From a virus (lineage: Duplodnaviria; Caudoviricetes), in IMG/VR virus record IMGVR_UViG_3300008050_007455, positions 46-64,045 of that record: a DNA stretch of 64,000 bases; one strand, given 5' to 3'. The notes beneath the pieces were generated by a model. That model had not been told where the DNA came from. It made no database searches and saw nothing but the letters and a program-made list of their open reading frames with translations. This document shows, piece after piece, positions 29,877-42,770 of this stretch. Position 1 is the first letter of the stretch. Each line of letters opens with the position of its first letter. The position numbers and the translations under genes were made by a program.

Positions 29877-30611
29877 TTAAAATTCAGTTTCTGCTTTCCT
29901 TACCATGTAATATTTTGAAGAAATATCATCTAATTCAAAATCTAATCTTATTAATCCCATACTACTTAGTAATAATTTACCACCATCCATATCTTTATTA
30001 GCTTGGAGAATGGTTTTAAATGTATCTGAATTAAATGGTAATTTTATATCTGTTTCTTTAATATCTCCTAATACTTGGTAGGTGATTTTATTATTGTGTC
30101 CTGATTCATCTCCAAAAACAAATTCAACAACATTCTCCCCATCTAAATTAGTTGTAGTTGTTACTAACATATTATCAATTTGGGCTAATGCACTTTTTGC
30201 TTTAATAATATTAACAACATCTTCTTGAGTTAAATTTAATTCAACAACCCACTCAGCTTCATTAACTTCTCCTACTTTATTTATAAGTAATGGGTCTGAT
30301 AATGCATAATTAAGATTAAAATTAAGATCTGATATTTTTAGTTTTGTATAAATTGCATTATTTTTTTCTAATTCTAGAAGTAAATCACCATTACAAATAC
30401 TAATTAAACTATTTAATTTTTTAGTATCATAAATAGCTAATTTACTATCTTCTAGTTGGAAATTATTGCAAGTTACATTACCAATAACATCTTTAGTAGG
30501 AGTCATAAAATCAATATTAAGGGTATTATTTTCAATATTCCATTTTACTGATTCATTTGTTCCAAGATAGTATTTATCTATTATACTTTGTACCGTTAAT
30601 TTATTTATCAT
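29877..30611 (-). CDS. DNA polymerase sliding clamp (gp45/PCNA-like)
   Basis: 244 aa, AIYDTKKL, F....FKTILQANKD, terminal YYMV; lies between polymerase and clamp loader. Confidence 0.7.
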   Translation of the reverse strand: MINKLTVQSIIDKYYLGTNESVKWNIENNTLNIDFMTPTKDVIGNVTCNNFQLEDSKLAIYDTKKLNSLISICNGDLLLELEKNNAIYTKLKISDLNFNLNYALSDPLLINKVGEVNEAEWVVELNLTQEDVVNIIKAKSALAQIDNMLVTTTTNLDGENVVEFVFGDESGHNNKITYQVLGDIKETDIKLPFNSDTFKTILQANKDMDGGKLLLSSMGLIRLDFELDDISSKYYMVRKAETEF

Positions 30612-32209
30612 TTTTTAAAATATATTTTATCATTAATTACTAAGATATCCACTATATTGTTATCCAAATGTACGAAAGCTTCTTTGGGGTGACAAACTAT
30701 AGGTTCACCATGTATATTAAAACTTGTATTTAATAAAACAGGGATATTAGTAATATCATTAAACTTATTTATTAAATTATAGAACTTAGGATTACTATTT
30801 TCAGTTACAATTTGAATTCTTGCTGTTTTATCAATTGGGTGAACCACTGCTGGTATTTTATTAATCCATTCTTCCCTAGTATCATAAAGCATGGTCATAA
30901 ACTCAGCTGTGTATTTAGATTTATTTACATTAAACACTTTATCAGCGTATTCATCAATAACAACGGGGGCAAAGGGCATAAAATCATTCCGTTGTAATCT
31001 ATCATTTATTTTTTTGTAGGTGCCTGGTATACTAGGGTCTGCTATAATACTTCTATTACATAAAGCTCTAGGACCATGCTCGTACCTTCCTTGAAACCAT
31101 CCTACTACTTTTCCCTCTTTTAATTCATAAGCTATTTGATTTGGGGAGTAAGGTCTTATATTATATTTACTTTCATCTATATCAAATTCATCATCAGTAT
31201 AAGAAGTACCTAAAAAAACATTATCTAATTTAAAAGGTTTAAAGGATGGATTTTTTAATTTATGGGCTGCTAAGGCTGATCCCAAAGGTAAGCCTTCATC
31301 CCCCATTGGAGGGGCAATAAATACTTCTTCTACCCATGAAAGATCATTAATTTTTTTATTAAGTTTAACATTAGCAAATACCCCACCAGCTGCTGCTACA
31401 TTTTTCACAGTTGGGTATGTTAGGTGCATATTATTAATTAATTGAAGTATTTTTTCTTCAAATACTAATTGTCCATTAAATGCTATATCATCTTCTTTAT
31501 GCTTACAATATTCACTTCCAAATTCTTTAAACCAGAGACTATAAAACTCTTCATATACCCCTCCTAATATCTTATTTCCATTATCTCTATCAGTTTTTAA
31601 TCCTTCAATTGTAATACATTTATTAAAAATATTATATATTTTTTCATTATAAACCCCATGTGAAGCTCTACCAACAACCTTACCTTCATCTTTTAGTCTT
31701 TTAAAACCTAAAAACTCAGTAAGCATAGCATAATAATGTCCTAAAGATTTGTATTCCAAAGAAATATTTGAAATTTCCTTAAGATCCCCCTCAATTCCTA
31801 CATACACCCTGCAAGAATATTCTTCACCTGATGCATCAATAGATATTACAAAGGTATCTTCTTTAAACCCACTACAATAATAAGCTAAAGCACAATGGCC
31901 TAAGTGATGATTTATTTTAATATATTTTTCTTCAGGTAGAGGACCTAACCCAGTACCCCTCCAAATTGCATCCATCTGTTTTATGGTGAAATGGGAGGTG
32001 ATAAAATCAATTCCCTCCCAACTAAACTCTTTAAACCTTAAAACATTTTTTGCAGAATTATAAGGGAATCTAAAGAAGTCCTGTTGGAAGTCTTTATATG
32101 TTCTAATTCTATTAAATCTTTCTTCTTCAAATGCAAATATAGGTTGTCCATCTTCTAAATAAGCTAAACCACAACTATGCATTCCTCCTGTTATTCCTAG
32201 TATTTTCAT
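30608..32209 (-). CDS. Carbamoyltransferase (CmcH/NodU/TobZ family)
   Basis: EEERFNR, HHLGH, DASGE, EGKVVG, GGVFANVKLN, GDEG, EHGPRALCNRS, FMPFAP, LLNTSFNIHGEPIV. Confidence 0.93.
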   Translation of the reverse strand: MKILGITGGMHSCGLAYLEDGQPIFAFEEERFNRIRTYKDFQQDFFRFPYNSAKNVLRFKEFSWEGIDFITSHFTIKQMDAIWRGTGLGPLPEEKYIKINHHLGHCALAYYCSGFKEDTFVISIDASGEEYSCRVYVGIEGDLKEISNISLEYKSLGHYYAMLTEFLGFKRLKDEGKVVGRASHGVYNEKIYNIFNKCITIEGLKTDRDNGNKILGGVYEEFYSLWFKEFGSEYCKHKEDDIAFNGQLVFEEKILQLINNMHLTYPTVKNVAAAGGVFANVKLNKKINDLSWVEEVFIAPPMGDEGLPLGSALAAHKLKNPSFKPFKLDNVFLGTSYTDDEFDIDESKYNIRPYSPNQIAYELKEGKVVGWFQGRYEHGPRALCNRSIIADPSIPGTYKKINDRLQRNDFMPFAPVVIDEYADKVFNVNKSKYTAEFMTMLYDTREEWINKIPAVVHPIDKTARIQIVTENSNPKFYNLINKFNDITNIPVLLNTSFNIHGEPIVCHPKEAFVHLDNNIVDILVINDKIYFKK

Positions 32210-32213
32210 ATAT

Positions 32214-33146
32214 TTAAAATTTAAAAAACATTTCTTTATAAGGGTTTAAATTTAAAGTCCACCCTAAATCATTATAAAATCCTTCTAGTTTATTAAGTAA
32301 TATTGATTCAAAAATCTTCTTCCTATCTGCGTTTTGCTCAATGAATTTGTGGATTTTTTCAGGTAAATCCCACTCTAAAAAAGCAAGGGCATCAATTTGA
32401 TATGGGTTAGGTTTCAAATAAATCCATTTAATTTTATCACCTTGACCAATTTGACTGTGTGATTTATTTAAACCCCAAAAATTAAGTAAATCATTATATC
32501 TAATAACTGCTCTTACAGCTGCTGGGGCTCCTTTAGCTACTACAGTAAACATTTCACCCGCTCTTGCTTTTCGTTCAGTATATTTATTTAATGTTTTTAC
32601 TGATGTTGGATTACCTAATTCTGTAAGAGGAATAGTACCATCTAATATCTGAGTTTTAAATTCCTTTAATCTTTTATCTATTTCACTTTGTTCTTCTCCT
32701 TTTAAAACATCAACTAAAGTTTTATGAAAAAACTTACCTAACACAGGTGGAAAATTTGCTTTTTTAAATTCAAGACCTTTAACATCAAGTGATTCTTTTA
32801 CAATTCCTTCCTGTTTAGTAATCCATTGGGCATATCTTCTTGTTGCTCTAAAATAAGCTGATCTAATAACACATTCAGTTTTCATTTCTAATCTATGTTG
32901 GCCCTTAGCATTAAAACAATCTGTAGCTAAATCACTATAGGAATCAGTAATAATATCTTGATACTTTAAAGCAGCTTCTTCTAAAATATTATCCTTTTCC
33001 TCACTTGACATTTCTTCAAAGTTAGGGTATAAATGTCTAAGTAAAGGTTCAGCATGTATATAAATTGAATCTGTGTCAGAATAAGCTACATAATTTGTAT
33101 CTTCAGGATCACAAATCCACCAAGGAGTATCTTCTAAATGTTTCAT
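32214..33146 (-). CDS. Family B DNA polymerase, C-terminal subunit (palm motif C and thumb)
   Basis: YSDTDSIY, RRYA, VKGLE. Confidence 0.92.
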   Translation of the reverse strand: MKHLEDTPWWICDPEDTNYVAYSDTDSIYIHAEPLLRHLYPNFEEMSSEEKDNILEEAALKYQDIITDSYSDLATDCFNAKGQHRLEMKTECVIRSAYFRATRRYAQWITKQEGIVKESLDVKGLEFKKANFPPVLGKFFHKTLVDVLKGEEQSEIDKRLKEFKTQILDGTIPLTELGNPTSVKTLNKYTERKARAGEMFTVVAKGAPAAVRAVIRYNDLLNFWGLNKSHSQIGQGDKIKWIYLKPNPYQIDALAFLEWDLPEKIHKFIEQNADRKKIFESILLNKLEGFYNDLGWTLNLNPYKEMFFKF

Positions 33147-34825
33147 AATTCTACTTCATTTTTCATTACTTTATTCATGTGTCTGTTAGCAGCCAATGCA
33201 GATTCTTGTATAATACGTTGTCCACTAAGCGTTATAGCTTCAGATAATATAACATTCCCATAACGGAATGATCCCAGTGCTGTTGCACCATACAACGAAT
33301 TAAGTAAAATCTTCATTGTATATTGTTTCATGTGAAATGTAGCACCTAATTCATCATTCCCGGATTTAAATGCTTTTTTCATTTCATTTTTATATAAAAC
33401 TCTTTCATCAAACCACTTTTTTAATATAGTTGATAATACTGATTCACGATTTGTATTAAATAAAACCCCATTAGCTGATATAGATAATTCATTTTGTTCT
33501 ACCATAGCTACTAATCTACCAGCATTAACTTTAGTTCTACTGCGTTTGATATTTTCAACTATAAATTCTTCATCAGGATCTTTACGTTTTAAATCATTTA
33601 ATCCTAAACGATTATTTCTATCATCAGCATCTATAATTCTTCCAACCATAGTTTCTTTACCAATGTTAATAGTCATAATAATTGAAGGATATAGTGAAGT
33701 TAAATCCTCATCAAATACATAATTATAAATTCCAGCTTTAGGGCAGAATAAATAACCACCAGCATAATTCTTTTTAGATAAAGGATTACGATCTTTAGCA
33801 GGTGGTACTATTTTTTTACTTAATAAATAAGCTGAAATAGCTCCATCTTGAGTTTTAGTATTTGCATATACTTCACTATAATTGTGTTTACCTTTGTGAG
33901 CCAAATTCTTTACTAGTGATAGATACTCTAACTTTTCATCTAATACTTTTAAAATCTCAACATCCCTAAAGTTATACTGAATGAATTTAAGAGGATCATC
34001 ATCAAATAATTTATCTAAATTACCATCATATTCAATTTTATTTAATCCAGCATATTTTTCACCAATAGCATCTAGTTTAAATGAAGGTTCATCTTTCCAA
34101 CTAAATTTCTTATGCAATCTCATATAATCTAAAGACTCAACTCCTGCAATTTGTATATATTGATCTTTAAACCAAGGTGTTTCTCGAACATAACCTATTG
34201 GAGATAAATAACGTGCAACCTCTTGTCCTAACACATTACACATTCTGTAATATAAGTAGGGAATATCAAAATAATCACTATTCCACCCTACTACAATGTC
34301 AGGATCAATTTCTCTAAATCGTTCTAGAAATTTAAGTAATAATTCTTCCTCAGTTTTACAAGGAATAATTTCTTTAGTTTTTGCTTTTGTTCTTTTAAGG
34401 TTAGATTTAGGATCTAAAATTAAAATAGCCCATTCATCTACTTGTTTATCATACCAAGCAATTGATGTTACTTTTTTAGGGGCTGATTTGATATAATCTT
34501 CTGTAAGAGCATCCCCCATTTCAGTCTCAATATCAAAAAATAATTCTCTTTGAGTCTGTGAGGGTTCATCATTTATCCCATATTTTTCAACTAGAAATTT
34601 TTGATATGGAGTCATATCATGGAAATGAAGATTGTAATTATCTGATTTCCAATTAGATACTTTCTTTAAAGACTCTCCATTTAGGCCAATATGTGTAGCT
34701 TGTGAGTCATCACATTCAATATAAGCTTGATTAACCCATTCAACTTTTTGATAACCCTCATCATCCCAAAGGTGAATTAGGAATTCATTTCCTTTTTTCC
34801 TTTGTGCAAAACATTTTTTATACAA
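33143..34825 (-). CDS. Family B DNA polymerase, N-terminal subunit (3'-5' exonuclease plus motifs A and B)
   Basis: FDIET, GWNSDYFDIPY, YNFRDV, DLTSLYPS, KILLNSLYG. Confidence 0.95.
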   Translation of the reverse strand: MYKKCFAQRKKGNEFLIHLWDDEGYQKVEWVNQAYIECDDSQATHIGLNGESLKKVSNWKSDNYNLHFHDMTPYQKFLVEKYGINDEPSQTQRELFFDIETEMGDALTEDYIKSAPKKVTSIAWYDKQVDEWAILILDPKSNLKRTKAKTKEIIPCKTEEELLLKFLERFREIDPDIVVGWNSDYFDIPYLYYRMCNVLGQEVARYLSPIGYVRETPWFKDQYIQIAGVESLDYMRLHKKFSWKDEPSFKLDAIGEKYAGLNKIEYDGNLDKLFDDDPLKFIQYNFRDVEILKVLDEKLEYLSLVKNLAHKGKHNYSEVYANTKTQDGAISAYLLSKKIVPPAKDRNPLSKKNYAGGYLFCPKAGIYNYVFDEDLTSLYPSIIMTINIGKETMVGRIIDADDRNNRLGLNDLKRKDPDEEFIVENIKRSRTKVNAGRLVAMVEQNELSISANGVLFNTNRESVLSTILKKWFDERVLYKNEMKKAFKSGNDELGATFHMKQYTMKILLNSLYGATALGSFRYGNVILSEAITLSGQRIIQESALAANRHMNKVMKNEVEL

Positions 34826-34830: not shown

Positions 34831-35346
34831 TTATTTATTTTTATTGTTTTTAATTTCCTCTTCTGTAAAAAACTGCTTAAGATCAGGTCTATAGTAATTA
34901 ATATTTTTCATTACTTTCCTATCACGTGTTCTATAGACAATATAATACTCACCAACCTTCTCATAATGACACGGTTCTTTTTGTTCGGCGGAGCGTTTTT
35001 CCACGGTTGCTTGTGCATCCTCTTCGCTTGAACAAGCCTTCGACATATTCGAACCTTGTACTTCTTGATAGGCTGGCCATATCTTATCCTTAAGACCATG
35101 TAACATAGTTCCGTTACCCAACGAAACATAGGCAATGTCACATAAAGCATCAAGAACCTCAACAATATCTCCTCTTTCACAGGCATGTTTATACTCCTCA
35201 AGTTCTTCGAGGATGAAATCATAAACAAACTGCCATTCTTTCTTTTCGGGAATTGTAGGTTCATAATTATTTGGTTTACCCATAGTGGAATTAAATTCCT
35301 CTACTTCATTTACAAATGGTACATTAAAATCTTTTTCTCTACTCAT
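34831..35346 (-). CDS. MazG-like / PRA-PH-like nucleoside triphosphate pyrophosphohydrolase
   Basis: FILEELEEY...EVLDALCDIAYV...EVQGSNMSK. Confidence 0.85.
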   Translation of the reverse strand: MSREKDFNVPFVNEVEEFNSTMGKPNNYEPTIPEKKEWQFVYDFILEELEEYKHACERGDIVEVLDALCDIAYVSLGNGTMLHGLKDKIWPAYQEVQGSNMSKACSSEEDAQATVEKRSAEQKEPCHYEKVGEYYIVYRTRDRKVMKNINYYRPDLKQFFTEEEIKNNKNK

Positions 35347-35359: not shown

Positions 35360-36055
35360 TTAAATATTATGTCCTCCGTTATTAATCTTCAGACTATCAA
35401 AAAATTCTACTCTTGCTAAATTATCATTATCTCTAAATACTCCTGATGCTTTAGTTGTTACCATAGCTGCTCCTTCATGTTTTACACCTCTACAGCTTAC
35501 ACAATTATGAGTTCCAACAATAGTAACAATTACACCTCTATTACCTTCAGTAATTTTACATACTGCATTATGTATTGCTGATGTTAATTGCTCTTGGATA
35601 GCTCCTCTACGACCAAATAATTCAACAATTCTATTTAATTTAGATAATCCAATTACTTGACCCTCTTCTCCTGCAACATAACCAATATGAACTACTCCTC
35701 CAATTGTTTGGTGGTGATGTGAACACATTGATGTTAATGGAATATTTCTTTCAATTATAATACCATCATAACCATCGGAAGGAAATGAAGTAATAGGGGA
35801 CATTGCTGTGTATCTACCAGCCCATAAATCATTTACATATGCTTTAGCTACACGACGTGGTGTTTCCATTGAATTGGGATCATTTCTCCAATCGCATTTT
35901 AAAGCATCTAAAAACTTACCATAAGCTTCTTCTGCTTCGTCTATCATTTTATCTTTATCTACTTGTTCTAGGGGGAATCCTTCAGCAACTCCATTTGCAT
36001 AACCTGTTTGTACTACTTCTAATTCTTTGTGAATTTTTCTTCGTTTATTTTCCAT
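35360..36055 (-). CDS. folE: GTP cyclohydrolase I
   Basis: ETPRRVAK, SMCSHH, GLSKLNRIV, IQEQLT, HNCVSCRG. Confidence 0.95.
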   Translation of the reverse strand: MENKRRKIHKELEVVQTGYANGVAEGFPLEQVDKDKMIDEAEEAYGKFLDALKCDWRNDPNSMETPRRVAKAYVNDLWAGRYTAMSPITSFPSDGYDGIIIERNIPLTSMCSHHHQTIGGVVHIGYVAGEEGQVIGLSKLNRIVELFGRRGAIQEQLTSAIHNAVCKITEGNRGVIVTIVGTHNCVSCRGVKHEGAAMVTTKASGVFRDNDNLARVEFFDSLKINNGGHNI

Positions 36056-36121: not shown

Positions 36122-36364
36122 TTATGCATGAGGATCTGGATCAGTCCACTCTGGTGTAGCCATTATTGTTAATATTTCTGAATGTGTATAAGGCCCATCG
36201 TATGAACTTAAATTAGCAACAAATGAAGGTTCACTACCATCCCATTTAATAACGGTTTGGGTTTCATCAAGTGACAATCTTAGTGTTTCTTCGGATGTTT
36301 CTAAAACTTCATTGAAGTCAACTAATCCTACTTCTGCTATGTTTATAATAATATATGTTTTCAT
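36122..36364 (-). CDS. Conserved phage protein often following LamG/fiber genes
   Basis: VDFNEVLETSEETLRLSLD...YTHSEILTIMATPEW. Confidence 0.75.
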   Translation of the reverse strand: MKTYIIINIAEVGLVDFNEVLETSEETLRLSLDETQTVIKWDGSEPSFVANLSSYDGPYTHSEILTIMATPEWTDPDPHA

Positions 36365-38010
36365 AATCCAAATCTTGTTTTTTGTGCGTTGTAGTTTTGG
36401 AGGACTTCTGAATCGGATAATGTTTTATTATAGGCCTTAACATTAGCTATTTTCCCAGGAAAGTATTGTGAATTAGCATCCCTACCTATATAAACCTTTG
36501 TGTTATTACTTGCTGGGTTGGTGGTTTGGGATTTTGTGTTTACTTGGACCCCATTTTCATAAAGCTTCATTGTACTTCCATCTAAAGTTGCAACTATATG
36601 TAAGTATTCATCTGTAGCTCTATTGGCAATATAAACAGTTCTGACTGTTGAACCATTTCTTATACCAAATCCCCAGCTTTTATTTCCAGCAGAAGGCCAG
36701 TCTCTAAAACCAAACAGTGCCCAACCATCCGAATCCCAGCCTGCTGTAGCACCCTTACTTACTAGGTTAGGGTACTTGGACCCTCCGGTCCAACTACTTG
36801 GGAAGTATACCCAACATTCTATGGAGAATACCCCATTTGTAAAATCTAAAGATGATTGGTCTCCTAAATCTATATGATCATCACTACCATCAAAATCCCA
36901 AATACCACCATAGTTACTATTAAACCCAACCCCATTATTTAAAGCTCCCTCTAAAGATCCTGTCATTGAATAAGTAGTAGTAGAACCACTTTCATATGAT
37001 ACTAAATTACCAGGATCAAAAGCTCCAACTAAACCATCTGTTACAATATTACTACCATAGTAATTTTGATTAACATTTTCTTGAGAATATTCCCCATAAG
37101 AAAGTCTAGCTAAAGCTATACTACCTGAAAAGAAATCATTGGGGTTATTACTTTTATAATCAAACCCTAAACTAAAAGGTTGATCATTCATACCATTTCC
37201 AGTATTAGCATTATTTTCTCCTATAAATTGACCATTAACATAAAACTGTAAATAAGTTTGATCTGTTGAAGATTTATTTTCCCCCGGTTGGACATTTAAT
37301 ACTGCATAATACCATCTTCCTACTTCTATATTACTTGTTTGTACACTAGTATATGCTGCTCCTCTTAAAGTATTATCACTATAAATCCATATACCATATT
37401 CAGGACCCCAATTATCTGAAAATATGGCTTGTTGGCGACTACCAAGATCCATAGGTTTAAATAAAACTTCCATTACATTAGGGGCACTATCAGGATTAAA
37501 ACTACTAACAGTATCTTGCATATATGAAGTAGTCCCATTAAATTCAAAGGATTGTCCATTAAAGGTTACATCAGTAAGAGGAGTCCAATTATTATTATAA
37601 CCACTTAAATCATAAAAAGTATTTCCTGTTGTTGGGTATGAACTTACCACCCCGGCGTTTAATACAAGTCTTAAACCCTCTGTAATCCTATTCCTGGGGG
37701 TATTATGTAATATCCAAGTACTAGTACGACCCGCTAAATAATTTAAAGCATCACTTTTAGTTGAAACACTTCCTCCTAAAGTATTGGCTGCTCTAATTAC
37801 TTCATCATCAGTAGTAACAATCATAGCAATTGGTCTATTATTTAATCCTAAGGAATAAATAGCATATCCACCTGCTGGGGGTTTAATAGTATTATAATAT
37901 CCAGTTTCAGATGTAGGTCCTAGATTTTCAGTAGGATTTACAGCAAGTGCTAAATCACCTCTTCTTAAAGCATCTTTAGTAGGTTGTGAAGTTTTATAAG
38001 CGTAGGGCAT
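36361..38010 (-). CDS. Tandem LamG-domain virion protein (fiber/decoration)
   Basis: GPTSETGYY..I.PP.GGY N-terminus, two ITxGL...SY...DLSG-type LamG repeats, YNKTLSDSEVLQNYNAQKTRFGL end; start MPYAY after the ATATTTATA motif. Confidence 0.8.
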   Translation of the reverse strand: MPYAYKTSQPTKDALRRGDLALAVNPTENLGPTSETGYYNTIKPPAGGYAIYSLGLNNRPIAMIVTTDDEVIRAANTLGGSVSTKSDALNYLAGRTSTWILHNTPRNRITEGLRLVLNAGVVSSYPTTGNTFYDLSGYNNNWTPLTDVTFNGQSFEFNGTTSYMQDTVSSFNPDSAPNVMEVLFKPMDLGSRQQAIFSDNWGPEYGIWIYSDNTLRGAAYTSVQTSNIEVGRWYYAVLNVQPGENKSSTDQTYLQFYVNGQFIGENNANTGNGMNDQPFSLGFDYKSNNPNDFFSGSIALARLSYGEYSQENVNQNYYGSNIVTDGLVGAFDPGNLVSYESGSTTTYSMTGSLEGALNNGVGFNSNYGGIWDFDGSDDHIDLGDQSSLDFTNGVFSIECWVYFPSSWTGGSKYPNLVSKGATAGWDSDGWALFGFRDWPSAGNKSWGFGIRNGSTVRTVYIANRATDEYLHIVATLDGSTMKLYENGVQVNTKSQTTNPASNNTKVYIGRDANSQYFPGKIANVKAYNKTLSDSEVLQNYNAQKTRFGL

Positions 38011-38026
38011 TTTTTGATTATAAATA

Positions 38027-38533
38027 TTAGAGGGAATAGATAGCAGGCAAATTTCTACAATAGCCTTTATCATTATCCATTCCAAACCCAACTAACCACT
38101 CATCCCCAATTTCAAAAGCATTAAAAAATGGTGCTTTTGGTTTTGGGCTTGTTTTTCTAGTAATTAAACTTACAATTGAAATTGACTTTGGATGTTTTAC
38201 CTCTAAATATTCTATAACAGCCGCCATAGTATTTCCTGTGTCGTAAATATCATCTACAATATAAACATGCTTACCTTTTATTGGGGTTTCTAAATCTTTA
38301 GTGATTTGGATATCACCCTGTTTATTCTTGCTTAAATACGATTTAACGCGCATAAAATCACACTCCACATCAATTGGCATAGCCCGCACTAAATCGCTGT
38401 AAAATGCAAAACAACCATTAAGTAAGCCAACCATTACCACGGGGGTACGGTCATCTCTATGCTCAGCTGATATTTGTTTTGCTACTATTTTTGTTTGGAT
38501 ATCTATATCCCTAGATCCTATTAACTCTATCAT
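38027..38533 (-). CDS. hpt: Hypoxanthine/guanine phosphoribosyltransferase
   Basis: GLLNGCFAFYSDL, VKSY, VYIVDDIYDTGNT PRPP-binding loop, LVGFGMD...RNLP. Confidence 0.88.
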   Translation of the reverse strand: MIELIGSRDIDIQTKIVAKQISAEHRDDRTPVVMVGLLNGCFAFYSDLVRAMPIDVECDFMRVKSYLSKNKQGDIQITKDLETPIKGKHVYIVDDIYDTGNTMAAVIEYLEVKHPKSISIVSLITRKTSPKPKAPFFNAFEIGDEWLVGFGMDNDKGYCRNLPAIYSL

Positions 38534-38535
38534 AT

Positions 38536-39381
38536 TTAAACACATCTTTCTGTATTAAAAGCCATAATGTGGCTTCTACCTGTAAATCTCCATCCTTTAT
38601 CTCTTACAAAATTCATTACTACCGGATAAGATTCCATTAAACTTTCTCTATCATCCCCAGCAGGCATAGCCCATATTTTAGTTGGAAGATAATTCATTAA
38701 TTCTTCTTTTGTAGGTTGGTCTAAACCATAAAAATTACAAAAACCCTTTTCAAGTAATTTATCTGCGAGTTGGTCAATAAATTCTTCTACTTCTTCTACC
38801 ATAGATAATTTATTATCTAATACAGGTTTAAGATGAAAATCAGAGTGATGTATAATTGAATCTGCAATAGCTTCAACATTTAACCTTAAACGATTATGAG
38901 TTTTAACCATTTTTTCATCTGTTACCTTTCCCGAAGGAGTGAGAGCACCCACAACGGGGACACTATTACTAAACTTAGGACTAATGCTAAGCAAATTAAT
39001 AGGATAATCGGTAGGAAGAAAATGAGATCCCTCAGTTTCAATAGTAATAAAGATATTGTTTTCATAGGCAAAGTGTGTTAACTCATTAACTAATTTAGGA
39101 TGCATTGTTGGTGATCCCCCAGTTAACATCATTTCCTTAATATGAGGATTTTCCTCATACATTTTGACAATATCATTAAAATTAAATATTCCCTTTTCTG
39201 GGTGGATACTAGTGTACCAACTATCGCACCATCCTCCCTCACCAAAATAACATCTATGGGTGCAACCTGTTGTTCTAACTACAATAGTAGGGTAACCTTG
39301 ACGGCTACCCTCACTTTGTACTGCAGTATAAATTTCTAATACTGGTAGTCTTTTACTATAATCTTCTATTCTTTTTAACAT
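38536..39381 (-). CDS. queE: 7-carboxy-7-deazaguanine synthase (radical SAM)
   Basis: EIYTAVQSEG, RTTGCTHRC...WCDS, LTGGSP, IETEG, ISPK. Confidence 0.9.
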   Translation of the reverse strand: MLKRIEDYSKRLPVLEIYTAVQSEGSRQGYPTIVVRTTGCTHRCYFGEGGWCDSWYTSIHPEKGIFNFNDIVKMYEENPHIKEMMLTGGSPTMHPKLVNELTHFAYENNIFITIETEGSHFLPTDYPINLLSISPKFSNSVPVVGALTPSGKVTDEKMVKTHNRLRLNVEAIADSIIHHSDFHLKPVLDNKLSMVEEVEEFIDQLADKLLEKGFCNFYGLDQPTKEELMNYLPTKIWAMPAGDDRESLMESYPVVMNFVRDKGWRFTGRSHIMAFNTERCV

Positions 39382-39441: not shown

Positions 39442-39933
39442 TTATTCTTCGTATATTGATGAATTTTTGTCAGCTTCCCAACATTCTACTTTTACACATT
39501 TACATCTACCTCCATCGGTAAGTGCTAAACGTTCATTAAATTTATCATAGACTAATTTAGCACATGATTCTGCTCCCATTTTATCCATAATTCTTAAAGC
39601 ACAAAGTCCTTCCATAGCAGCTCCCTCGAAAAAATCTAAATATGGATCATCTTTTTCAATTAATAATGTATGATCCCACATAAAATCCATCCATGTTTTT
39701 AAACCATTACCAGGTGTAGGTTCTGCATTTATTGCTTTAAATCCTCCATAATCAACAATCCAATTCATATCATCCAAACCATCATTGTCATCTAAAGGAG
39801 TGTTTGATTCAAACCATACTTTAAATTTTAGAGCATATCCATGTAAAAGTTTACAATGTGAGTGTTGTGCTTTGTGCTGTCTAAGAGCTACCGAGTAGTT
39901 ATCGAATACTTTTGTTGATTTATATTTACCCAT
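39442..39933 (-). CDS. queD: 6-carboxy-5,6,7,8-tetrahydropterin synthase (6-PTPS family)
   Basis: HCKLLHGY, WIVDYG, WDHTLL, GAE, ECWE. Confidence 0.9.
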   Translation of the reverse strand: MGKYKSTKVFDNYSVALRQHKAQHSHCKLLHGYALKFKVWFESNTPLDDNDGLDDMNWIVDYGGFKAINAEPTPGNGLKTWMDFMWDHTLLIEKDDPYLDFFEGAAMEGLCALRIMDKMGAESCAKLVYDKFNERLALTDGGRCKCVKVECWEADKNSSIYEE

Positions 39934-40183
39934 TGTACCAATCTAAAATTTGTTGTTCTGAAAGTTGTCCTACTTTTCTTGAAATTTCCTTACCATCTAA
40001 ATCTGTTAAGACCATAGTAGGAACACTTTTAATATTATACTGTTGAGGTAGTTGAGCATCATAATCAACATTTACTTTTCTAACATTAATTCTACCTTGT
40101 TTCCCCATTTGCTCAATTAGGGGAGTCATTACTTTACAAGGCCCACACCAAGGAGCGCTGAAATATAAAATTCCTTTATTCAT
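39926..40183 (-). CDS. Thioredoxin
   Basis: WCGPC, SVPT. Confidence 0.95.
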   Translation of the reverse strand: MNKGILYFSAPWCGPCKVMTPLIEQMGKQGRINVRKVNVDYDAQLPQQYNIKSVPTMVLTDLDGKEISRKVGQLSEQQILDWYNG

Positions 40184-40200: not shown

Positions 40201-40479
40201 TTATACTAATTCTTCGATTATACCTATTACTTCACTCAATATAAGTAAAATAGTTGCAAAAACCAAATTAAAGGGAAGGAAGATGTATCCTAATATCCTA
40301 ACCCCAGATTTGATAAAACTTATTTTTTGATGTAAGTAAGCATCAGGTAATTCTTTAATATTAGCCCCTGCTAATTGACTAACTATCTTATTTACTTCTT
40401 TTTCCACTTTTGGATCATTTAATGGTACAGAAGTGTTAATTGTGGATCTTTTAGCGTCCATTATTTCTCTATCACTCAT
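40201..40479 (-). CDS. Hypothetical membrane protein
   Basis: HQKISFIKSGVRILG...AILLILSEVIGIIEELV-type C-terminal hydrophobic hairpin. Confidence 0.7.
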   Translation of the reverse strand: MSDREIMDAKRSTINTSVPLNDPKVEKEVNKIVSQLAGANIKELPDAYLHQKISFIKSGVRILGYIFLPFNLVFATILLILSEVIGIIEELV

Positions 40480-40481: not shown

Positions 40482-41330
40482 TTATTTAATATTTAATTGT
40501 TCCTTCTCATATTCTGAAAGAACTTGTTCGACATATATTTTAGCTGTTTCAAAATCAACAGGACCTGTTTCATCAGCATATTGTACTGGGTCAGGTCTAC
40601 CCAATTTTATAAAGGCTTCAACACGTTCTACAGATGATGCTGATTTATAATCAGACCACCCTTCAGGTGTTGGTTTATATGAAGTATTTGTTCTAGCATA
40701 AACTTCGTCAAAATCTATTTTTAATTTTTCACATAATTTTTCCCCATCTTGTAAAATAGTAAATTTATCACCTTTAAGATAAGGTGTATAGTACCCTACT
40801 CTTTCAGCATCCCAATTACCCTCTCTAAAAGCATGATCATCGGCATCTCTAAATTCTTGCCTACAATCAGGATAGATATCATGATCACCTGCATGAATCC
40901 CTAAAGCAATTGATGTTGATTCTTCTGTTCTATTTGCTACGGATAATGCTACTGCTTGAGTAATTGATGAGAATATTTTATTTCTATTAGGCACTACTGT
41001 GGCTTTCATATTTTCAGCAGCATAATGTCCTTCTGGGACTTCATCTCCCCCTTCAACTAAAGCTGAGTCGAGAAGTTCTACTAGACCATATAATGTAATT
41101 ACTTGAAAAGTTACATTATGACCATTTCTTTTTAAATAATCTACTAATGCTCTTGCTCTTTTGAGTTCAACCTTATGTTTTTGGCCATAATCAAAAGACA
41201 AAGCTGTTACAGTTTGAAATTTATCAAGACATTTAAGTAATAATGTACTTGAATCCATACCACCTGAAAGTGATACTACTGCATGTTTTGGACGTTGTGA
41301 GTCTTTAAAATTTAATTCCAATTGTGTCAT
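40482..41330 (-). CDS. queC: 7-cyano-7-deazaguanine synthase
   Basis: SLSGGMDSST, FDYGQKH, VPNRN, YPDCR. Confidence 0.95.
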   Translation of the reverse strand: MTQLELNFKDSQRPKHAVVSLSGGMDSSTLLLKCLDKFQTVTALSFDYGQKHKVELKRARALVDYLKRNGHNVTFQVITLYGLVELLDSALVEGGDEVPEGHYAAENMKATVVPNRNKIFSSITQAVALSVANRTEESTSIALGIHAGDHDIYPDCRQEFRDADDHAFREGNWDAERVGYYTPYLKGDKFTILQDGEKLCEKLKIDFDEVYARTNTSYKPTPEGWSDYKSASSVERVEAFIKLGRPDPVQYADETGPVDFETAKIYVEQVLSEYEKEQLNIK

Positions 41331-41348: not shown

Positions 41349-41379
41349 GCCAGGTATTTTAAGCGTATAGGCTAACGCT
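41349..41379 (-). ncRNA. Candidate cis-regulatory pseudoknot in the queC leader
   Basis: AGCGT-TAGCCTAT-ACGCT-TAAAATACC-TGGC: 5-bp stem, loop GCC complementary to downstream GGC, A-rich linker. Confidence 0.35.
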
Positions 41380-41380
41380 A

Positions 41381-41602
41381 TTACATATCAATTAATCTAT
41401 GTTGTTTTTGTTCAGTAACCACATCAAAATGAGTACCTTGTATTTTTACACTTCCTCCCTGTTTGAGAATTTTTCTAAATAATCCTTCTTCTCTATCAGT
41501 CCAAAATTCACTAAGGGCAATAACTTCATCTTTACTTGCAGGTCTTTTATTTTTATTAATAAATATTTTTTGGTTAGACCTTATTGATTGTTTTTTTAAC
41601 AT
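41381..41602 (-). CDS. Hypothetical protein
   Basis: ORF in the dpdA-queC operon. Confidence 0.65.
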   Translation of the reverse strand: MLKKQSIRSNQKIFINKNKRPASKDEVIALSEFWTDREEGLFRKILKQGGSVKIQGTHFDVVTEQKQHRLIDM

Positions 41603-41606
41603 ATCT

Positions 41607-41801
41607 TTATTCTTCTACAAATTCAACATCACCATAATCATCAATTGGTTTATCTCTTACTAATTCCCAATCGGCATCATCTATAATTTCTTGTTGGATA
41701 TCTTCATCGCCTGTTTTCCATTGTGCTAGTTGTTCATCTGTTAACACATACTCTTCCCATCTGTAGTTTGCGTAATTTACTGTTCTTGTTAATTTTGCCA
41801 T
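41607..41801 (-). CDS. Hypothetical acidic protein
   Basis: ORF, D/E-rich. Confidence 0.65.
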   Translation of the reverse strand: MAKLTRTVNYANYRWEEYVLTDEQLAQWKTGDEDIQQEIIDDADWELVRDKPIDDYGDVEFVEE

Positions 41802-41802
41802 A

Positions 41803-41982
41803 TTACATGAATTTTGGTATTCTAAATTTTAAAATTGGAGTACCATTAATGGTGGGTTGACCCATTTCATCAATTCCAATTTCTTTTACTTTTACTGGTT
41901 TGTTCCTAAATCTTCCAGTCATTATAGTATCACCTATTTTTATGGGGATTTTGAAATAATCTTCTATATATGTTGCTTTCAT
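41803..41982 (-). CDS. Small SH3-like phage protein
   Basis: IKIGDTIMTGRFRNK.VKVKEIG.DE.GQPTING; ATGA-coupled to upstream gene. Confidence 0.65.
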   Translation of the reverse strand: MKATYIEDYFKIPIKIGDTIMTGRFRNKPVKVKEIGIDEMGQPTINGTPILKFRIPKFM

Positions 41983-42770
41983 ATGCAATTAATTTTTCTA
42001 AATTTATCAATATTATATTCTAATAGATCATAATCAACCTGGCTATCTAACATATAGAAATAATCATTCATATTTGCTTTTGGTTTTTTAAATAAACCTG
42101 AGTGAGTATATTGAATGTTTTCTAAAGTTGCCATTACGGGGTTTGATGTGTCAATTGATTCAATACAATTTATATCTTTATACCACCCAAATTCTTGGGG
42201 AACCGCACAACCTAATAAATGAACTCTATCATCTTGTTTTAATTCTCCAGTTTTAAGTAAAGTAGATATTACAAATAATCTTCCTAAAGCTTTTCCTAAA
42301 TCTTTGTTGGGGTGAGTACAAATATCATTATAATAATTAGCTCCATAAGAAAAACATATTTTACCATACCCCAAATTTTTATAAGCTTTAACACATTGAG
42401 CTGCTTCATGTAGTGTTTTTGCTTGAACTACTGCTACTTTTTCTGTATTTTTGGGGAAATCATATAAATTCCAAATTTCAGCATTTTGAATTGACTCTAT
42501 ACAGTTTTCCCAAACATCAGGTACTATAAATTCATTAGGTTCTAATTCATTAACCCAATGTATAAGACGTTCATGTGTATAAGCTTCACCCAATTCATGA
42601 AGTGAATTATCCATTATAATATAACGACCCTGTCTTTTAGATTCTAAAAAATATTCTAAATAACCAGGTTCTTCATCCAATAAATGAGGAAGACAGTAGT
42701 CATAATCATTAAAACGTCTACTATCGTTTAGGAGGCATAAGGGTGTTTCATGACTTATTTTTATTACCAT
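41979..42770 (-). CDS. TGT-fold protein, DpdA-like 7-deazaguanine insertion enzyme (possibly DpdA3-type)
   Basis: IIMDNSLHE, IVPDV, VAVVQ, VHLLGC, SIDTSNPV: the TGT/DpdA TIM-barrel motif order; heads the que operon. Confidence 0.7.
   Translation of the reverse strand: MVIKISHETPLCLLNDSRRFNDYDYCLPHLLDEEPGYLEYFLESKRQGRYIIMDNSLHELGEAYTHERLIHWVNELEPNEFIVPDVWENCIESIQNAEIWNLYDFPKNTEKVAVVQAKTLHEAAQCVKAYKNLGYGKICFSYGANYYNDICTHPNKDLGKALGRLFVISTLLKTGELKQDDRVHLLGCAVPQEFGWYKDINCIESIDTSNPVMATLENIQYTHSGLFKKPKANMNDYFYMLDSQVDYDLLEYNIDKFRKINCI

What the first reader, a model, noticed from the sequence alone, without database searches (positions are those of the whole stretch)
29877..42770. 7-deazaguanine pathway built into the replisome operon with HPRT, a MazG-like pyrophosphatase, split PolB and a carbamoyltransferase: candidate pre-replicative G-substitution system
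Seen: co-oriented order dpdA-like, queC, trx, queD, queE, hpt, (LamG insert), folE, mazG-like, polB-N, polB-C, carbamoyltransferase, clamp. Established: FolE/QueD/QueE/QueC make preQ0 from GTP; canonical DpdA swaps it into DNA after replication; divergent DpdA3-type proteins have been linked to full G replacement in some Bacteroidota phages; Z-genome phages pair a base-synthesis enzyme with a canonical-dNTP-removing enzyme and a dedicated polymerase. Inference: the purine phosphoribosyltransferase directly behind queE could activate preQ0 (or recycle guanine), the MazG-like enzyme could deplete dGTP, and the adjacent polymerase could incorporate the analogue. None of the known tailoring genes (QueF, ArcS, Gat-QueC, DpdC, DpdL, DpdM, DpdN) is recognisable here, so the final base may be preQ0 or a new derivative.
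Basis: partly seen in the sequence, partly recalled or inferred. Interest (0 to 1): 0.8.

Follow-up and report, generated by a model that had tools for sequence, protein, structure and literature searches.

The report
Phage guanine-replacement gene cluster, DpdA3 type
An uncultured marine phage carries a known kind of gene set that probably swaps the guanine in its DNA for a 7-deazaguanine base, and a guanine-salvage enzyme travels with it, but nothing here shows that the swap happens before replication.

Summary
The gene order is real. All genes lie on the minus strand in a tight array: DpdA3-like, QueC, thioredoxin, QueD, QueE, Hpt, LamG protein, FolE, MazG-like, split PolB, carbamoyltransferase, probable clamp.

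It is a member of the published DpdA3-type 7-deazaguanine DNA system (Cui et al. 2023). It belongs to an abundant marine clade of about 160 kb phages related to Flavobacterium phage immuto. No QueF or DpdN was found in the window or in two near-complete relatives, so the base is probably preQ0 or a close derivative.

A purine phosphoribosyltransferase is a conserved companion. It occurs in 38 of 44 dereplicated near-clade loci, in two non-orthologous forms, and in all three phages shown to replace every G. The MazG-like enzyme behaves like a dUTPase stand-in. The carbamoyltransferase and the LamG gene are indels. Other DpdA3 phages use other polymerase families.

I lean to base exchange on DNA with guanine recycling. 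A nucleotide-level swap by DpdA3 with a tightly linked kinase stays a serious rival.

This scan has noted the same cluster type before, in at least 32 other genomes.

The parts
41979..42770 (-). DpdA3-family transglycosylase (263 aa), the predicted base-swapping enzyme
   Evidence: PHROG 19058, E 4.5e-45. 38% identity to immuto DpdA and to Firehammervirus homologues, 24% to phiST. AF2 model pLDDT 97 with TGT/DpdA fold, E about 1e-7, TMq 0.60-0.68, including 7ui4. Profile A1 hits DpdA 7ui4 at E 0.0044. Invariant D54, D85, D207 in 45 sequences.
41381..41988 (-). Three small ORFs (61, 64, 73 aa), function unknown
   Evidence: No Pfam or PHROG hit. Homologues are present in part of the related loci.
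40482..41330 (-). QueC (7-cyano-7-deazaguanine synthase), divergent
   Evidence: PF06508, E 4.8e-37. TIGR00364 at 123.7 bits, below its cut-off of 150.3. Present in 28 of 28 full-flank near-clade loci.
40201..40479 (-). Conserved 92-aa ORF with a hydrophobic C-terminus, function unknown
   Evidence: No family hit. Conserved between QueC and Trx in most near-clade loci.
39926..40183 (-). Thioredoxin
   Evidence: PF00085, E 2.1e-17. Present in 27 of 28 full-flank near-clade loci.
39442..39933 (-). QueD (6-carboxytetrahydropterin synthase, PTPS fold)
   Evidence: PF01242, E 3.8e-11. TIGR03367, E 6.6e-5.
38536..39381 (-). QueE (radical-SAM 7-carboxy-7-deazaguanine synthase)
   Evidence: PF04055. 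TIGR03365, E 3.9e-14.
38027..38545 (-). Hpt-type 6-oxopurine phosphoribosyltransferase with phage-specific base-pocket residues
   Evidence: TIGR01203 at 149.7 bits against a cut-off of 150. E 2e-29 to E. coli Hpt structures. D98, D99 and D102 in 37 of 37 phage copies, R130 in 36 of 37, W150 in 32 of 37. 9 of 9 cellular Hpt rows have E-D, K and F at those places.
36361..38091 (-). Laminin_G_3 (concanavalin-like) protein; variable insert, not part of the pathway
   Evidence: PF13385, E 1.6e-31. Only 28-43% identical or absent in related loci.
36122..36364 (-). 80-aa ORF, function unknown
   Evidence: No family hit.
35360..36055 (-). FolE (GTP cyclohydrolase I), first pathway step
   Evidence: PF01227, E 9.1e-41. 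NF006826, E 5e-40.
34831..35346 (-). MazG-like all-alpha NTP pyrophosphohydrolase, probably a dUTPase-type house-cleaning enzyme
   Evidence: PF01503, E 4e-10. PHROG 671. 78% identical to the immuto NTP-PPase. Mutually exclusive with trimeric dUTPase in 5 of 5 genomes. Nearest fold is DR2231 in dUMP/dUMPNPP complexes; weak match, E 0.04, TMq about 0.4.
33143..34825 (-). Family B DNA polymerase, N part (exonuclease, motifs A and B)
   Evidence: PF00136 and PF03104. Motif A at residue 374 and motif B at residue 505. The same split recurs in many independent contigs.
32214..33146 (-). Family B DNA polymerase, C part (motif C, DTDS at residue 24)
   Evidence: PF20286 and PF00136, weak. Motif found. 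4-nt overlap with the N part. Unsplit in distant relatives such as L051, 915 aa.
30608..32209 (-). NodU/CmcH-type carbamoyltransferase; accessory indel, not part of the pathway
   Evidence: PF16861, E 1.3e-59, and PF02543. PHROG 1601. Absent from collinear relative G001, where polB-C abuts the clamp gene. Present in 4 of 28 full-flank near-clade loci.
29877..30611 (-). Probable sliding clamp (weak)
   Evidence: NF002222, E 0.0046. Atlas neighbours partly labelled gp45-slide_C/PCNA_N. Follows PolB in relatives. No PDB sequence match.

Best explanation
This is a DpdA3-type 7-deazaguanine DNA-replacement module of an uncultured marine phage. The phage has a genome of about 160 kb and is related to Flavobacterium phage immuto.

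Proposed steps, each marked as shown or inferred:
- FolE, QueD, QueE and QueC make preQ0 from GTP. The families are shown; the chemistry is inferred from those families.
- No QueF or DpdN homologue was found in the window or in two near-complete close relatives. The base that is installed is therefore probably preQ0 or a close derivative such as the amide ADG (inferred).
- The compact TGT-fold enzyme DpdA3 puts the base in place of guanine (inferred from family membership). By analogy with the three characterised DpdA3 phages it probably does so at most or all G positions.
- My lean is that the exchange happens on DNA after replication, as Cui et al. 2023 propose.
- The Hpt-type phosphoribosyltransferase would then convert the expelled guanine to GMP. 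That removes a competing product and feeds GTP back into FolE (inferred).
- The MazG-like enzyme is a dUTPase-type house-cleaning enzyme and not a dGTPase (inferred from distribution and fold).
- The carbamoyltransferase and the LamG protein are accessory insertions.
- The split PolB is this lineage's ordinary replicase.
For: Membership of the DpdA3 family:
- Homology to the immuto, CP220 and phiST DpdA3 proteins.
- TGT/DpdA fold at pLDDT 97.
- Invariant Asp residues in the family alignment.
- Cui et al. 2023 (PMC10516641, passages read) report complete replacement in CP220, phiST and immuto and propose a post-replicative mechanism.

Conserved order: DpdA3-QueC-Trx-QueD-QueE-PRT-FolE-MazG-PolB recurs in the related IMG/VR loci.

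No QueF or DpdN homologue:
- A Pfam QueF search found nothing in G001 or G002, both at least 97% complete.
- tblastn with immuto QueF and DpdN found nothing in the window or in G001.
- 0 of 28 near-clade loci carry either gene.

The phosphoribosyltransferase is conserved:
- 38 of 44 dereplicated near-clade loci that hold FolE and QueE have one. It is either Hpt-type or a non-orthologous Gpt-type enzyme, in the same slot.
- The Gpt-type occurs in only 16 of 50,697 phage records. Of these, 14 belong to DpdA3-encoding lineages. One more, Synechococcus phage BUCT-ZZ01, has it between queE and queD.
- CP220, phiST and immuto all have one.
- Both types belong to 6-oxopurine (guanine-class) families.

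MazG-like as a dUTPase stand-in:
- It is mutually exclusive with trimeric dUTPase in 5 of 5 genomes, and the dUTPase sits in the same slot in L051/L052.
- Its nearest fold is DR2231 in dUMP complexes.
- No HD phosphohydrolase scores above the cut-off in G001, G002, G003, immuto or phiST. G003 therefore has DpdA3 and que genes but no candidate dGTPase.

The carbamoyltransferase is an indel.
Against: - No DpdA3 enzyme has been shown to act on DNA. Cui et al. report that their E. coli tests of DpdA3 failed.
- DpdA3 is much smaller than its fold matches: 263 aa against target lengths of 337-413 aa for TGT and DpdA.
- The family is mostly acidic, with median pI 5.3 and only 2 of 127 above pI 7. This is weak evidence.
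- A nucleoside/nucleotide-kinase-like gene is the tightest neighbour of DpdA3 in the wider family, in 24 of 26 full-flank loci. Its profile matches kinases in the PDB. Exchange on DNA gives that gene no role.
- The phage Hpt clade differs from cellular Hpt at motif positions that I recall as contacting the base. This could mean a substrate other than guanine.
- 6 of 44 near-clade loci have no phosphoribosyltransferase, and neither does the complete genome G003. The enzyme is therefore dispensable.
- The level of modification in this phage is unknown.
Confidence: 0.45

Rival explanations
1. Base swap at the nucleotide or nucleoside level. DpdA3 exchanges guanine for the 7-deazaguanine base on dGMP or deoxyguanosine, not on DNA. 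A dedicated kinase of the nucleoside/nucleotide-kinase fold phosphorylates the product. Cellular NDK makes the triphosphate and the phage polymerase incorporates it. The phosphoribosyltransferase recycles the released guanine into GTP for more base. The logic resembles the T4 trio of dCTPase, dCMP hydroxymethylase and dNMP kinase (recalled).
For: - In 61 dereplicated distant DpdA3 loci the core order is DpdA3-(DpdN)-kinase-QueF. The kinase is present in 24 of 26 loci with at least 8 kb on both sides.
- Other P-loop genes sit directly beside DpdA3 in several phages. These are AAA_18 in phiST (E 1e-6) and in Chryseobacterium phage MA9V-3 (E 1.5e-7), a weak P-loop ORF in Bacillus phage BSTP12, and an HD/P-loop protein plus a 'thymidylate kinase' in CP220. 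A T4-type dNMP kinase lies beside GCHI and XPRT in Brevundimonas phage MaInes.
- The kinase profile A4 matches the NadR ribosylnicotinamide-kinase domain (E 1.6e-7), a deoxynucleoside kinase (3.8e-6), thymidylate kinase over its full length (2.7e-5) and deoxyguanosine kinase (6e-5).
- Homologues of the kinase exist in G001, G003, G005 and, as a partial copy, G004.
- Cui et al. cite the detection of the ADG nucleoside in the cytoplasm of CP220-infected cells, and report failed DpdA3 tests in E. coli.
- Complete replacement is typical of pre-replicative systems (recalled).
Against: - In the window's own clade the kinase is never adjacent to DpdA3 (0 of 28). It was not found in G002, which is 97% complete.
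- No dGTP-removing enzyme is evident. The MazG-like gene looks dUTPase-like, and G003 has neither a MazG-like gene nor an HD protein above the cut-off.
- TGT-family enzymes are known to act only on polynucleotides (established knowledge).
- The P-loop neighbour could instead be an ATPase helper, as DpdB is for bacterial DpdA (recalled from Gedara et al. 2023; only the search listing was seen).
- The kinase family also occurs in 89 Streptomyces phage records. I did not look for DpdA3 in those.
Confidence: 0.3
2. Hpt attaches preQ0 to PRPP to give a ribonucleotide. The phage ribonucleotide reductase and kinases turn it into the dNTP. The MazG-like enzyme depletes dGTP. The adjacent PolB is a dedicated polymerase that incorporates the analogue.
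For: - There is a biochemical precedent. TubE is a PRPP-dependent phosphoribosyltransferase specific for 7-carboxy-7-deazaguanine, encoded in a cluster with FolE, QueD and QueE homologues. ToyH is proposed to play the same role in toyocamycin synthesis (PMC6112128, passages read).
- A phosphoribosyltransferase sits between queE and folE in most near-clade loci.
- The phage Hpt clade has a consistent Lys-to-Arg change (36 of 37 copies), Phe-to-Trp change (32 of 37) and Glu-to-Asp change (37 of 37) at motif positions, against K, F and E in 9 of 9 cellular rows.
- The phage encodes both RNR subunits at 48434-51143.
- Hutinet et al. 2019 note that a modified-dGTP route had been proposed for Campylobacter phages.
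Against: - This route leaves DpdA3, the signature gene of complete replacement, without a role.
- The phosphoribosyltransferase is missing from 6 of 44 near-clade loci, from the complete genome G003 and from about half of the distant loci.
- Both phosphoribosyltransferase types keep the Asp of the D-x-G motif (37 of 37 Hpt copies; 7 of 7 Gpt-type copies). In HGPRT this Asp is recalled to act on N7, an atom that 7-deazaguanines lack.
- The MazG-like gene is interchangeable with a dUTPase.
- Polymerase families differ among DpdA3 phages.
- A ribonucleotide route would also feed the analogue into RNA.
Confidence: 0.1
3. The que genes serve RNA, not DNA. The phage boosts or alters the queuosine-type modification of host or phage tRNA, and the DpdA3-like protein is a tRNA transglycosylase.
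For: The fold is shared with tRNA-guanine transglycosylases. The pathway enzymes are the same as in queuosine synthesis.
Against: - The protein groups with DpdA3 of phages whose DNA was measured as fully modified.
- It lacks the C-terminal part of TGT: 263 aa against about 340-370 aa for the TGT targets.
- No tRNA genes are in the window.
- The cluster is embedded in the replication module.
Confidence: 0.03

Closest known systems
[quoted passage not shown] 2023, PMC10516641)
   Same: - DpdA3 is 38% identical.
- FolE, QueD, QueE and QueC are shared.
- A phosphoribosyltransferase lies between queE and folE.
- The MazG-like NTP-PPase is 78% identical and follows folE.
- Genome size, GroES/GroEL, holin and PD-(D/E)XK nuclease are similar.
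   Different: - Immuto has QueF, DpdN and an adjacent kinase. The window's clade has no QueF or DpdN homologue, and its kinase lies elsewhere in the genome.
- Immuto's phosphoribosyltransferase is Gpt-type; the window's is Hpt-type.
- Immuto replicates with PolA; the window has a split PolB.
dADG system of Campylobacter Firehammervirus phages (CP220; Crippen et al. 2019, not readable here; summarised in Cui et al. 2023)
   Same: - DpdA3 is 38% identical.
- CP220 has a Gpt-type phosphoribosyltransferase.
- Its kinase is homologous to the one in G001.
- I saw no QueF or DpdN annotated in the 30.8 kb of CP220 that I read.
   Different: - The genes are scattered in CP220. DpdA3 sits between an HD/P-loop protein and the kinase, and the phosphoribosyltransferase is about 108 kb away.
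- The host phylum differs.
dDG system of Cellulophaga phage phiST (FolE, QueD, QueE, DpdL, DpdA3)
   Same: - The order folE, then MazG-like, then DpdA3, lies next to a split replicative polymerase.
- A phosphoribosyltransferase is present in the genome.
- The host is a marine member of the Bacteroidota.
   Different: - phiST has no QueC and has DpdL.
- An AAA_18 P-loop gene lies beside DpdA3.
- The polymerase is PolIII alpha.
- DpdA3 is only 24% identical.
TubE/ToyH phosphoribosyltransferases of tubercidin and toyocamycin biosynthesis (PMC6112128)
   Same: A purine phosphoribosyltransferase is encoded together with FolE, QueD and QueE homologues. TubE is shown to join CDG to PRPP.
   Different: - These are secondary-metabolite clusters of Streptomyces, without a DpdA/TGT enzyme.
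- I could not obtain the TubE or ToyH sequences, so no comparison of sequence or active site was made.
Z-genome (2-aminoadenine) systems: PurZ, MazZ, DatZ, DpoZ
   Same: In concept only: complete replacement of one base, and an NTP pyrophosphohydrolase encoded near a polymerase.
   Different: - Nothing here was shown to remove dGTP.
- No polymerase family co-varies with the pathway.
- The MazG-like protein has no sequence match to any PDB chain.

Membership tests
DpdA3 subfamily of DNA/tRNA guanine transglycosylases | Sequence homology to the founding members (phiST CGPG_00065, CP220 and immuto DpdA3) | tested here: met
   tblastn gives 38% identity to immuto (6e-51), 38% to CP220-like phages (about 1e-41) and 24% to phiST (4e-5). 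PHROG 19058, E 4.5e-45.
DpdA3 subfamily of DNA/tRNA guanine transglycosylases | TGT-type TIM-barrel fold with conserved acidic residues | tested here: met
   AF2 model pLDDT 97. Foldseek finds TGT at E 3.6e-8 and DpdA 7ui4 at 5.5e-7. D54, D85 and D207 are invariant in 45 sequences. Their equivalence to the catalytic Asp residues of TGT is inferred; no residue-level alignment was made.
DpdA3 subfamily of DNA/tRNA guanine transglycosylases | Encoded together with 7-deazaguanine base synthesis genes | tested here: met
   FolE, QueD, QueE and QueC lie in the same co-oriented array. They are present in 25-28 of 28 full-flank near-clade loci.
DpdA3 subfamily of DNA/tRNA guanine transglycosylases | Complete replacement of G in virion DNA | not testable with these tools
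   All 24 runs that hold the stretch are kept as Illumina-derived contigs. No nucleoside or long-read signal data were available.
Hypoxanthine phosphoribosyltransferase (TIGR01203) | Score at or above the curated cut-off and a full-length match | tested here: inconclusive
   149.7 bits against a cut-off of 150, with residues 8-171 matching profile positions 2-165 of 167. E 2e-29 to E. coli Hpt structures.
Hypoxanthine phosphoribosyltransferase (TIGR01203) | Canonical motif residues: the E-D dyad, the Lys after the fourth strand, and the stacking Phe. Their roles are recalled and come from no call. | tested here: not met
   The window and the phage clade have D-D (37 of 37), Arg (36 of 37) and Trp (32 of 37). 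9 of 9 cellular rows and E. coli Hpt have E-D, Lys and Phe. The Asp of the D-x-G motif is retained in 37 of 37.
MazG / all-alpha NTP pyrophosphohydrolase superfamily | Helical NTP-PPase domain | tested here: met
   PF01503, E 4e-10. PHROG 671 'nucleotide pyrophosphohydrolase', E 8e-28. The fold's nearest neighbour is the MazG-like DR2231. The model is of only moderate quality, pLDDT 73.7.
dGTP-specific pyrophosphohydrolase (MazZ-like role) | Specificity for dGTP, or kinship with MazZ | tested here: not met
   No PDB sequence hit, either with the single sequence or with a profile. The nearest fold is in dUMP complexes. The gene is exclusive with trimeric dUTPase in 5 of 5 genomes. Substrate specificity itself cannot be tested here.
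Pre-replicative base-replacement system (T4 hmC or Z-genome logic) | An enzyme that removes the canonical dNTP | tested here: inconclusive
   The MazG-like gene is the only candidate. No HD protein scores above the cut-off in G001, G002, G003, immuto or phiST.
Pre-replicative base-replacement system (T4 hmC or Z-genome logic) | A kinase dedicated to the modified nucleotide | tested here: inconclusive
   A kinase-fold gene is linked to DpdA3 in 24 of 26 distant loci but in 0 of 28 near-clade loci. A homologue lies elsewhere in G001, G003, G005 and, as a partial copy, G004; none was found in G002. None is in the 64 kb window.
Pre-replicative base-replacement system (T4 hmC or Z-genome logic) | A polymerase that co-varies with the pathway | tested here: not met
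   PolB here, PolA in immuto, PolIII alpha in phiST and Pol I in BSTP12.
NodU/CmcH carbamoyltransferase as a part of the pathway | Conserved presence with the que and DpdA3 genes | tested here: not met
   Present in 4 of 28 full-flank loci and 7 of 66 near-clade loci overall. Absent from G001 at the same junction.

The most novel reading that the evidence does not exclude
DpdA3 may not be a DNA transglycosylase. It may instead swap guanine for the 7-deazaguanine base on a free deoxynucleotide or deoxynucleoside. A tightly linked nucleoside/nucleotide-kinase-like protein would then phosphorylate the product. A purine phosphoribosyltransferase with an altered base pocket would close the loop by returning guanine to GTP. 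That would be a new pre-replicative pathway to a non-canonical dGTP. It would explain how these phages reach 100% replacement, and it would make this marine clade a candidate for fully preQ0-substituted DNA.
Probability: 0.3. Interest if true: 0.85.

Novelty: new member of a known kind. Interest (0 to 1): 0.5.

Why it matters
How DpdA3 phages replace every guanine is unsolved. The enzyme has not been reconstituted, and both pre-replicative and post-replicative routes have been proposed in print.

This locus belongs to a very abundant marine clade. At least 592 IMG/VR stretches encode relatives, and the family has 1,473 clusters at 50% identity. The clade shows which genes really travel with DpdA3:
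- a guanine-class phosphoribosyltransferase, in two non-orthologous forms;
- in the wider family, a nucleoside/nucleotide-kinase-like protein.

Neither companion is mentioned in the passages of Cui et al. 2023 that I read, where the word counts were 0 for 'phosphoribosyl' and 0 for 'kinase'. Two full-text searches found no paper that links a phosphoribosyltransferase to phage 7-deazaguanine DNA. Supplementary tables and Crippen et al. 2019 could not be read.

This gives concrete experiments: co-express DpdA3 with the kinase and the phosphoribosyltransferase.

The clade also has QueC but no QueF or DpdN homologue. That predicts preQ0-level DNA, a combination not among the three DpdA3 phages measured so far.

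Tried and rejected
Searches that found nothing or could not run:
- Megablast of the whole region against 50,697 phage records gave no match.
- Crippen et al. 2019 is not held, by DOI or by PMC id. What that paper proposes is known to me only through citations.
- Three single distant DpdA3 representatives found nothing in IMG/VR.

Weak matches that I set aside:
- The Pfam thymidylate-kinase search of five relatives gave only sub-threshold P-loop matches in ORFs of about 310 aa. I read these as the clamp loader.
- The weak QueF matches in G003-G005 lie at the FolE-like ORF. I read them as cross-matches between related folds.

Tests that did not discriminate:
- DpdA3 fusion proteins were examined for a telling partner. 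They carry homing-endonuclease modules or a DpdN-type formyltransferase, which does not separate the models.
- The pI of DpdA3 is too weak to use, because the clamp and other DNA proteins here are acidic too.
- I looked for raw long reads that could show G-specific miscalls. All 24 runs are kept as contigs.
- Contigs from four marine RNA libraries lie on hpt, queD-trx, folE, dpdA3 and polB at 90-99% likeness. DNA carry-over cannot be excluded, so this is not counted as expression. Parts without cover mean nothing.

Readings considered and rejected:
- The carbamoyltransferase as a tailoring enzyme for the base: it is an indel.
- The LamG protein as part of the pathway: it is variable.

Full report
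**What is in the window.** The window has about 30% G+C, and every sizeable ORF lies on the minus strand. The held genome is a single virus contig of 64,045 bases, so 'the rest of the genome' is not available.

Between 42770 and 29877 the ORFs follow each other with gaps of 66 nt or less, or with short overlaps. Pfam, NCBIfam and PHROGs identify the following genes:
- QueC, thioredoxin, QueD, a radical-SAM QueE and an Hpt-type phosphoribosyltransferase;
- a Laminin_G_3 protein;
- FolE and a MazG-like/PRA-PH pyrophosphohydrolase;
- a family B polymerase in two ORFs;
- a NodU-type carbamoyltransferase.

The polymerase N part carries motifs A and B, and the C part carries motif C. The last ORF is only weakly clamp-like. 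The flanks hold a T4-like replication set and chaperones: gp32, a RecA/UvsX-like protein, DnaB, a flap nuclease, both RNR subunits, clamp-loader subunits, GroES/GroEL and Hsp20. A sugar-nucleotide and glycosyltransferase cluster lies downstream.

**The DpdA-like protein.** It has no Pfam or NCBIfam hit. It is 38% identical to the annotated DpdA of Flavobacterium phage immuto and to the homologues in Campylobacter Firehammervirus phages, and 24% identical to the phiST protein. These are the founding DpdA3 members of Cui et al. 2023 (passages read). That paper reports complete G replacement in CP220, phiST and immuto. It proposes a post-replicative mechanism and states that tests of DpdA3 in E. 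coli failed.

An AlphaFold model built on 45 sequences has pLDDT 97. It matches tRNA-guanine transglycosylases and the bacterial DNA preQ0 insertase DpdA. The sequence profile also reaches DpdA 7ui4, at E 0.0044. The family is large, with 1,473 clusters at 50% identity at E of 1e-3 or better and 3,689 clusters at 90% identity near the query.

**Relatives.** I obtained 60 IMG/VR loci with the window protein, then 57 more with the family alignment, then 80 more distant ones by putting a distant member first. At least 592 stretches in IMG/VR encode relatives.

The contig G001 (163,571 bases, rated 100% complete) is collinear with the window at 80-89% nucleotide identity.

This gave 127 representatives of 198 loci, the window included. 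They fall into two groups:

| Group | Definition | Representatives | With at least 8 kb on both sides |
|---|---|---|---|
| Near clade | at least 50% DpdA3 identity to the window | 66 | 28 |
| Far group | below 50% | 61 | 26 |

**The phosphoribosyltransferase.**
- Among the 34 non-dereplicated first-round loci that span queE to folE, 19 have the Hpt type, 7 have a small Gpt-type enzyme in the same slot, and 8 have none.
- After dereplication, 38 of 44 near-clade loci that hold FolE and QueE have one or the other.
- The small enzyme is homologous to immuto gp211. Its profile matches archaeal and bacterial 6-oxopurine enzymes, including E. coli XGPRT.
- In 50,697 phage records the small enzyme occurs in only 16: immuto (4 records), phiST-like phages (5), Firehammervirus (3), two Brevundimonas phages, Synechococcus phage BUCT-ZZ01 and one fecal fragment.
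- Where annotation exists, the gene sits beside que genes. The DpdA3 profile also finds a homologue in the Brevundimonas phage MaInes.
- CP220 has the small enzyme at 163875-164273. All three phages measured as fully substituted therefore encode one.
- It is not universal. The complete genome G003, Bacillus phage BSTP12 and Chryseobacterium phage MA9V-3 lack it.
- Bona fide hpt is rare in phage records: 19 records, mostly unannotated fragments.

**A signature in the Hpt type.** In 37 distinct phage copies the acidic dyad is D-D in all 37. The position aligned to the Lys of E. coli Hpt is Arg in 36. The stacking aromatic is Trp in 32. Nine cellular Hpt rows recovered from bacterial genomes have E-D, Lys and Phe. 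Two of the nine rows come from one MAG and are identical in the segments I compared.

That these positions contact the base is recalled, not tested. The Asp of the D-x-G motif is kept in all 37. The signature may reflect tuning towards guanine or a different substrate; I cannot tell which.

TubE shows that a phosphoribosyltransferase can take a 7-deazaguanine base. I could not obtain its sequence for comparison.

**The MazG-like enzyme.**
- It is the best conserved protein of the cluster, 78% identical to the immuto enzyme, and it follows folE in 19 of 28 full-flank near-clade loci.
- In L051/L052 a trimeric dUTPase sits in its place.
- In five genomes exactly one of the two is present. G001, G002, G004 and immuto have the MazG-like gene. 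G003 has the dUTPase.
- The model is of moderate quality (pLDDT 73.7). Its nearest solved structure is the MazG-like DR2231 in dUMP and dUMPNPP complexes, a weak match at E 0.04.
- No HD phosphohydrolase scores above the cut-off in G001, G002, G003, immuto or phiST.

These results favour a dUTP-cleaning role and leave G003 without any candidate dGTPase.

**Accessory genes.**
- The carbamoyltransferase gene is missing from G001 exactly between polB-C and the clamp gene. It occurs in 4 of 28 full-flank near-clade loci, and in L032 and L049 a 35% identical one sits elsewhere in the array.
- The LamG gene is variable.
- The polymerase split recurs in many independent contigs, but distant relatives have one ORF.

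**Tailoring genes.** A Pfam QueF search found nothing in G001 or G002. tblastn with immuto QueF and DpdN found nothing in the window or in G001. None of the 28 full-flank near-clade loci has either gene. Of the other tailoring genes, only a single-seed profile of phiST gp040, which I take to be DpdL, was run. ArcS, Gat-QueC, DpdC and DpdM were not searched for by name. The Pfam scans of 70 window ORFs showed none of the families I associate with them.

**The kinase.**
- In the far group the order DpdA3-(DpdN)-kinase-QueF is nearly constant. The kinase is present in 24 of 26 full-flank loci and QueF in 25 of 26. Roughly a third of these loci have no base-synthesis genes within 10 kb.
- The kinase profile matches the NadR ribosylnicotinamide-kinase domain, deoxynucleoside kinases, thymidylate kinase and deoxyguanosine kinase.
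- Unrelated P-loop genes flank DpdA3 in phiST, MA9V-3, BSTP12 and CP220.
- In the window's clade the kinase is never adjacent. A homologue lies elsewhere in G001, G003, G005 and, as a partial copy, G004; none was found in G002.
- The family also occurs in 89 Streptomyces phage records.

Exchange on DNA does not explain this linkage. It is the main support for a nucleotide-level swap.

**Weighing the models.** For exchange on DNA:
- the family precedent, and the proposal of Cui et al.;
- the lack of any dGTP-removing candidate in G003;
- a simple role for the phosphoribosyltransferase as a guanine sink and recycler.

For a nucleotide-level swap:
- the kinase linkage;
- the ADG nucleoside reported in infected cells, and the failed reconstitution (both cited);
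- the small size of DpdA3.

But it leaves DpdA3 idle and rests on a MazG-like enzyme that looks like a dUTPase.

The remainder is unassigned.

**Novelty and earlier notes.**
- The kind is published. This locus is a new member, from an uncharacterised and abundant marine clade, with a gene complement that differs from the three measured phages.
- This scan has noted the same cluster type at least 34 times, in at least 32 genomes. Those notes reached similar readings: a guanine-recycling phosphoribosyltransferase, MazG as a dUTPase stand-in, and in one note a swap on free nucleotides.
- I had reached the phosphoribosyltransferase counts and the dUTPase idea before reading them (notes). I tested the rest myself.

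**Habitat.** All 24 runs that hold the stretch are marine or seawater metagenomes, from 21 studies. Only one run holds more than half of the sampled words. A 90%-identity cluster of the DpdA3 protein carries a name from a Flavobacteriales MAG, and a phage-type hpt lies on a 3.6 kb contig binned to Lacinutrix. These are weak host hints only.

Noticed in passing
window 23364-23759 (-), with neighbours 22020-23376: A 131-aa ORF matches DUF1599, 'Nucleotide modification associated domain 1' (E 3e-5, 24.7 bits against a cut-off of 25). It lies directly beside a family-2 glycosyltransferase and an FkbM-type methyltransferase. A second nucleic-acid or sugar modification function may be present.
   Followed up: no
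window 11369-20766 (-): A sugar-nucleotide and glycan cluster: four glycosyltransferases, two NAD-dependent epimerases/dehydratases and a UDP-glucose/GDP-mannose dehydrogenase. G001 has the same block at about 83% identity.
   Followed up: partly
window 42837-43238 (-): A SET-domain protein (E 1.3e-12) lies immediately upstream of dpdA3. It is 80% conserved in the closest relatives and lies inside the que array in L040 and L044.
   Followed up: partly
L156-L235 (IMG/VR loci of distant DpdA3 relatives): Many loci carry only DpdA3, the kinase and QueF within 10 kb on either side, with no FolE, QueD, QueE or QueC. This suggests phages that take preQ0 from the host. DpdA3 fused to a DpdN-type formyltransferase also exists (P0200, P0214).
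   Followed up: partly
L013 6679-7203; L006 14016-14742: Near-clade relatives carry extra genes between queE and the phosphoribosyltransferase. By eye these are a flavodoxin-like ORF (a possible reductant for QueE), a staphylococcal-nuclease-like 112-aa ORF and a hotdog-fold thioesterase-like ORF. No family search was run on them.
   Followed up: no
window 40482-41330 (-): The QueC scores below the NCBIfam cut-off. By eye it lacks the C-terminal cysteine cluster that I recall as the zinc site of canonical QueC; serines stand there. Immuto's QueC is 70% identical in the 133-aa stretch that my locus held.
   Followed up: no
window 24662-25060 (-); 7329-8075 (-): There is a CorA-like Mg2+ transporter C-terminal fragment (E 3.6e-20). 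There is also an ORF that matches only the C-terminal end of PfkB carbohydrate kinases.
   Followed up: no
L241 (contig of 114,848 bases binned as a Microbacteriaceae MAG); L240 (3.6 kb contig binned as Lacinutrix): Phage-type hpt, 66% and 78% identical to the window's and with the phage motif signature, sits on contigs assigned to bacterial MAGs. These are probably phage contigs that were binned with bacteria.
   Followed up: no
L086 (Synechococcus phage BUCT-ZZ01, 69843-72623 of the record): A cyanophage has queE, XGPRT, a hypothetical gene, queD and GCHI in a row, but the DpdA3 profile finds nothing in its genome. This may be a DpdA3-less 7-deazaguanine pathway.
   Followed up: partly
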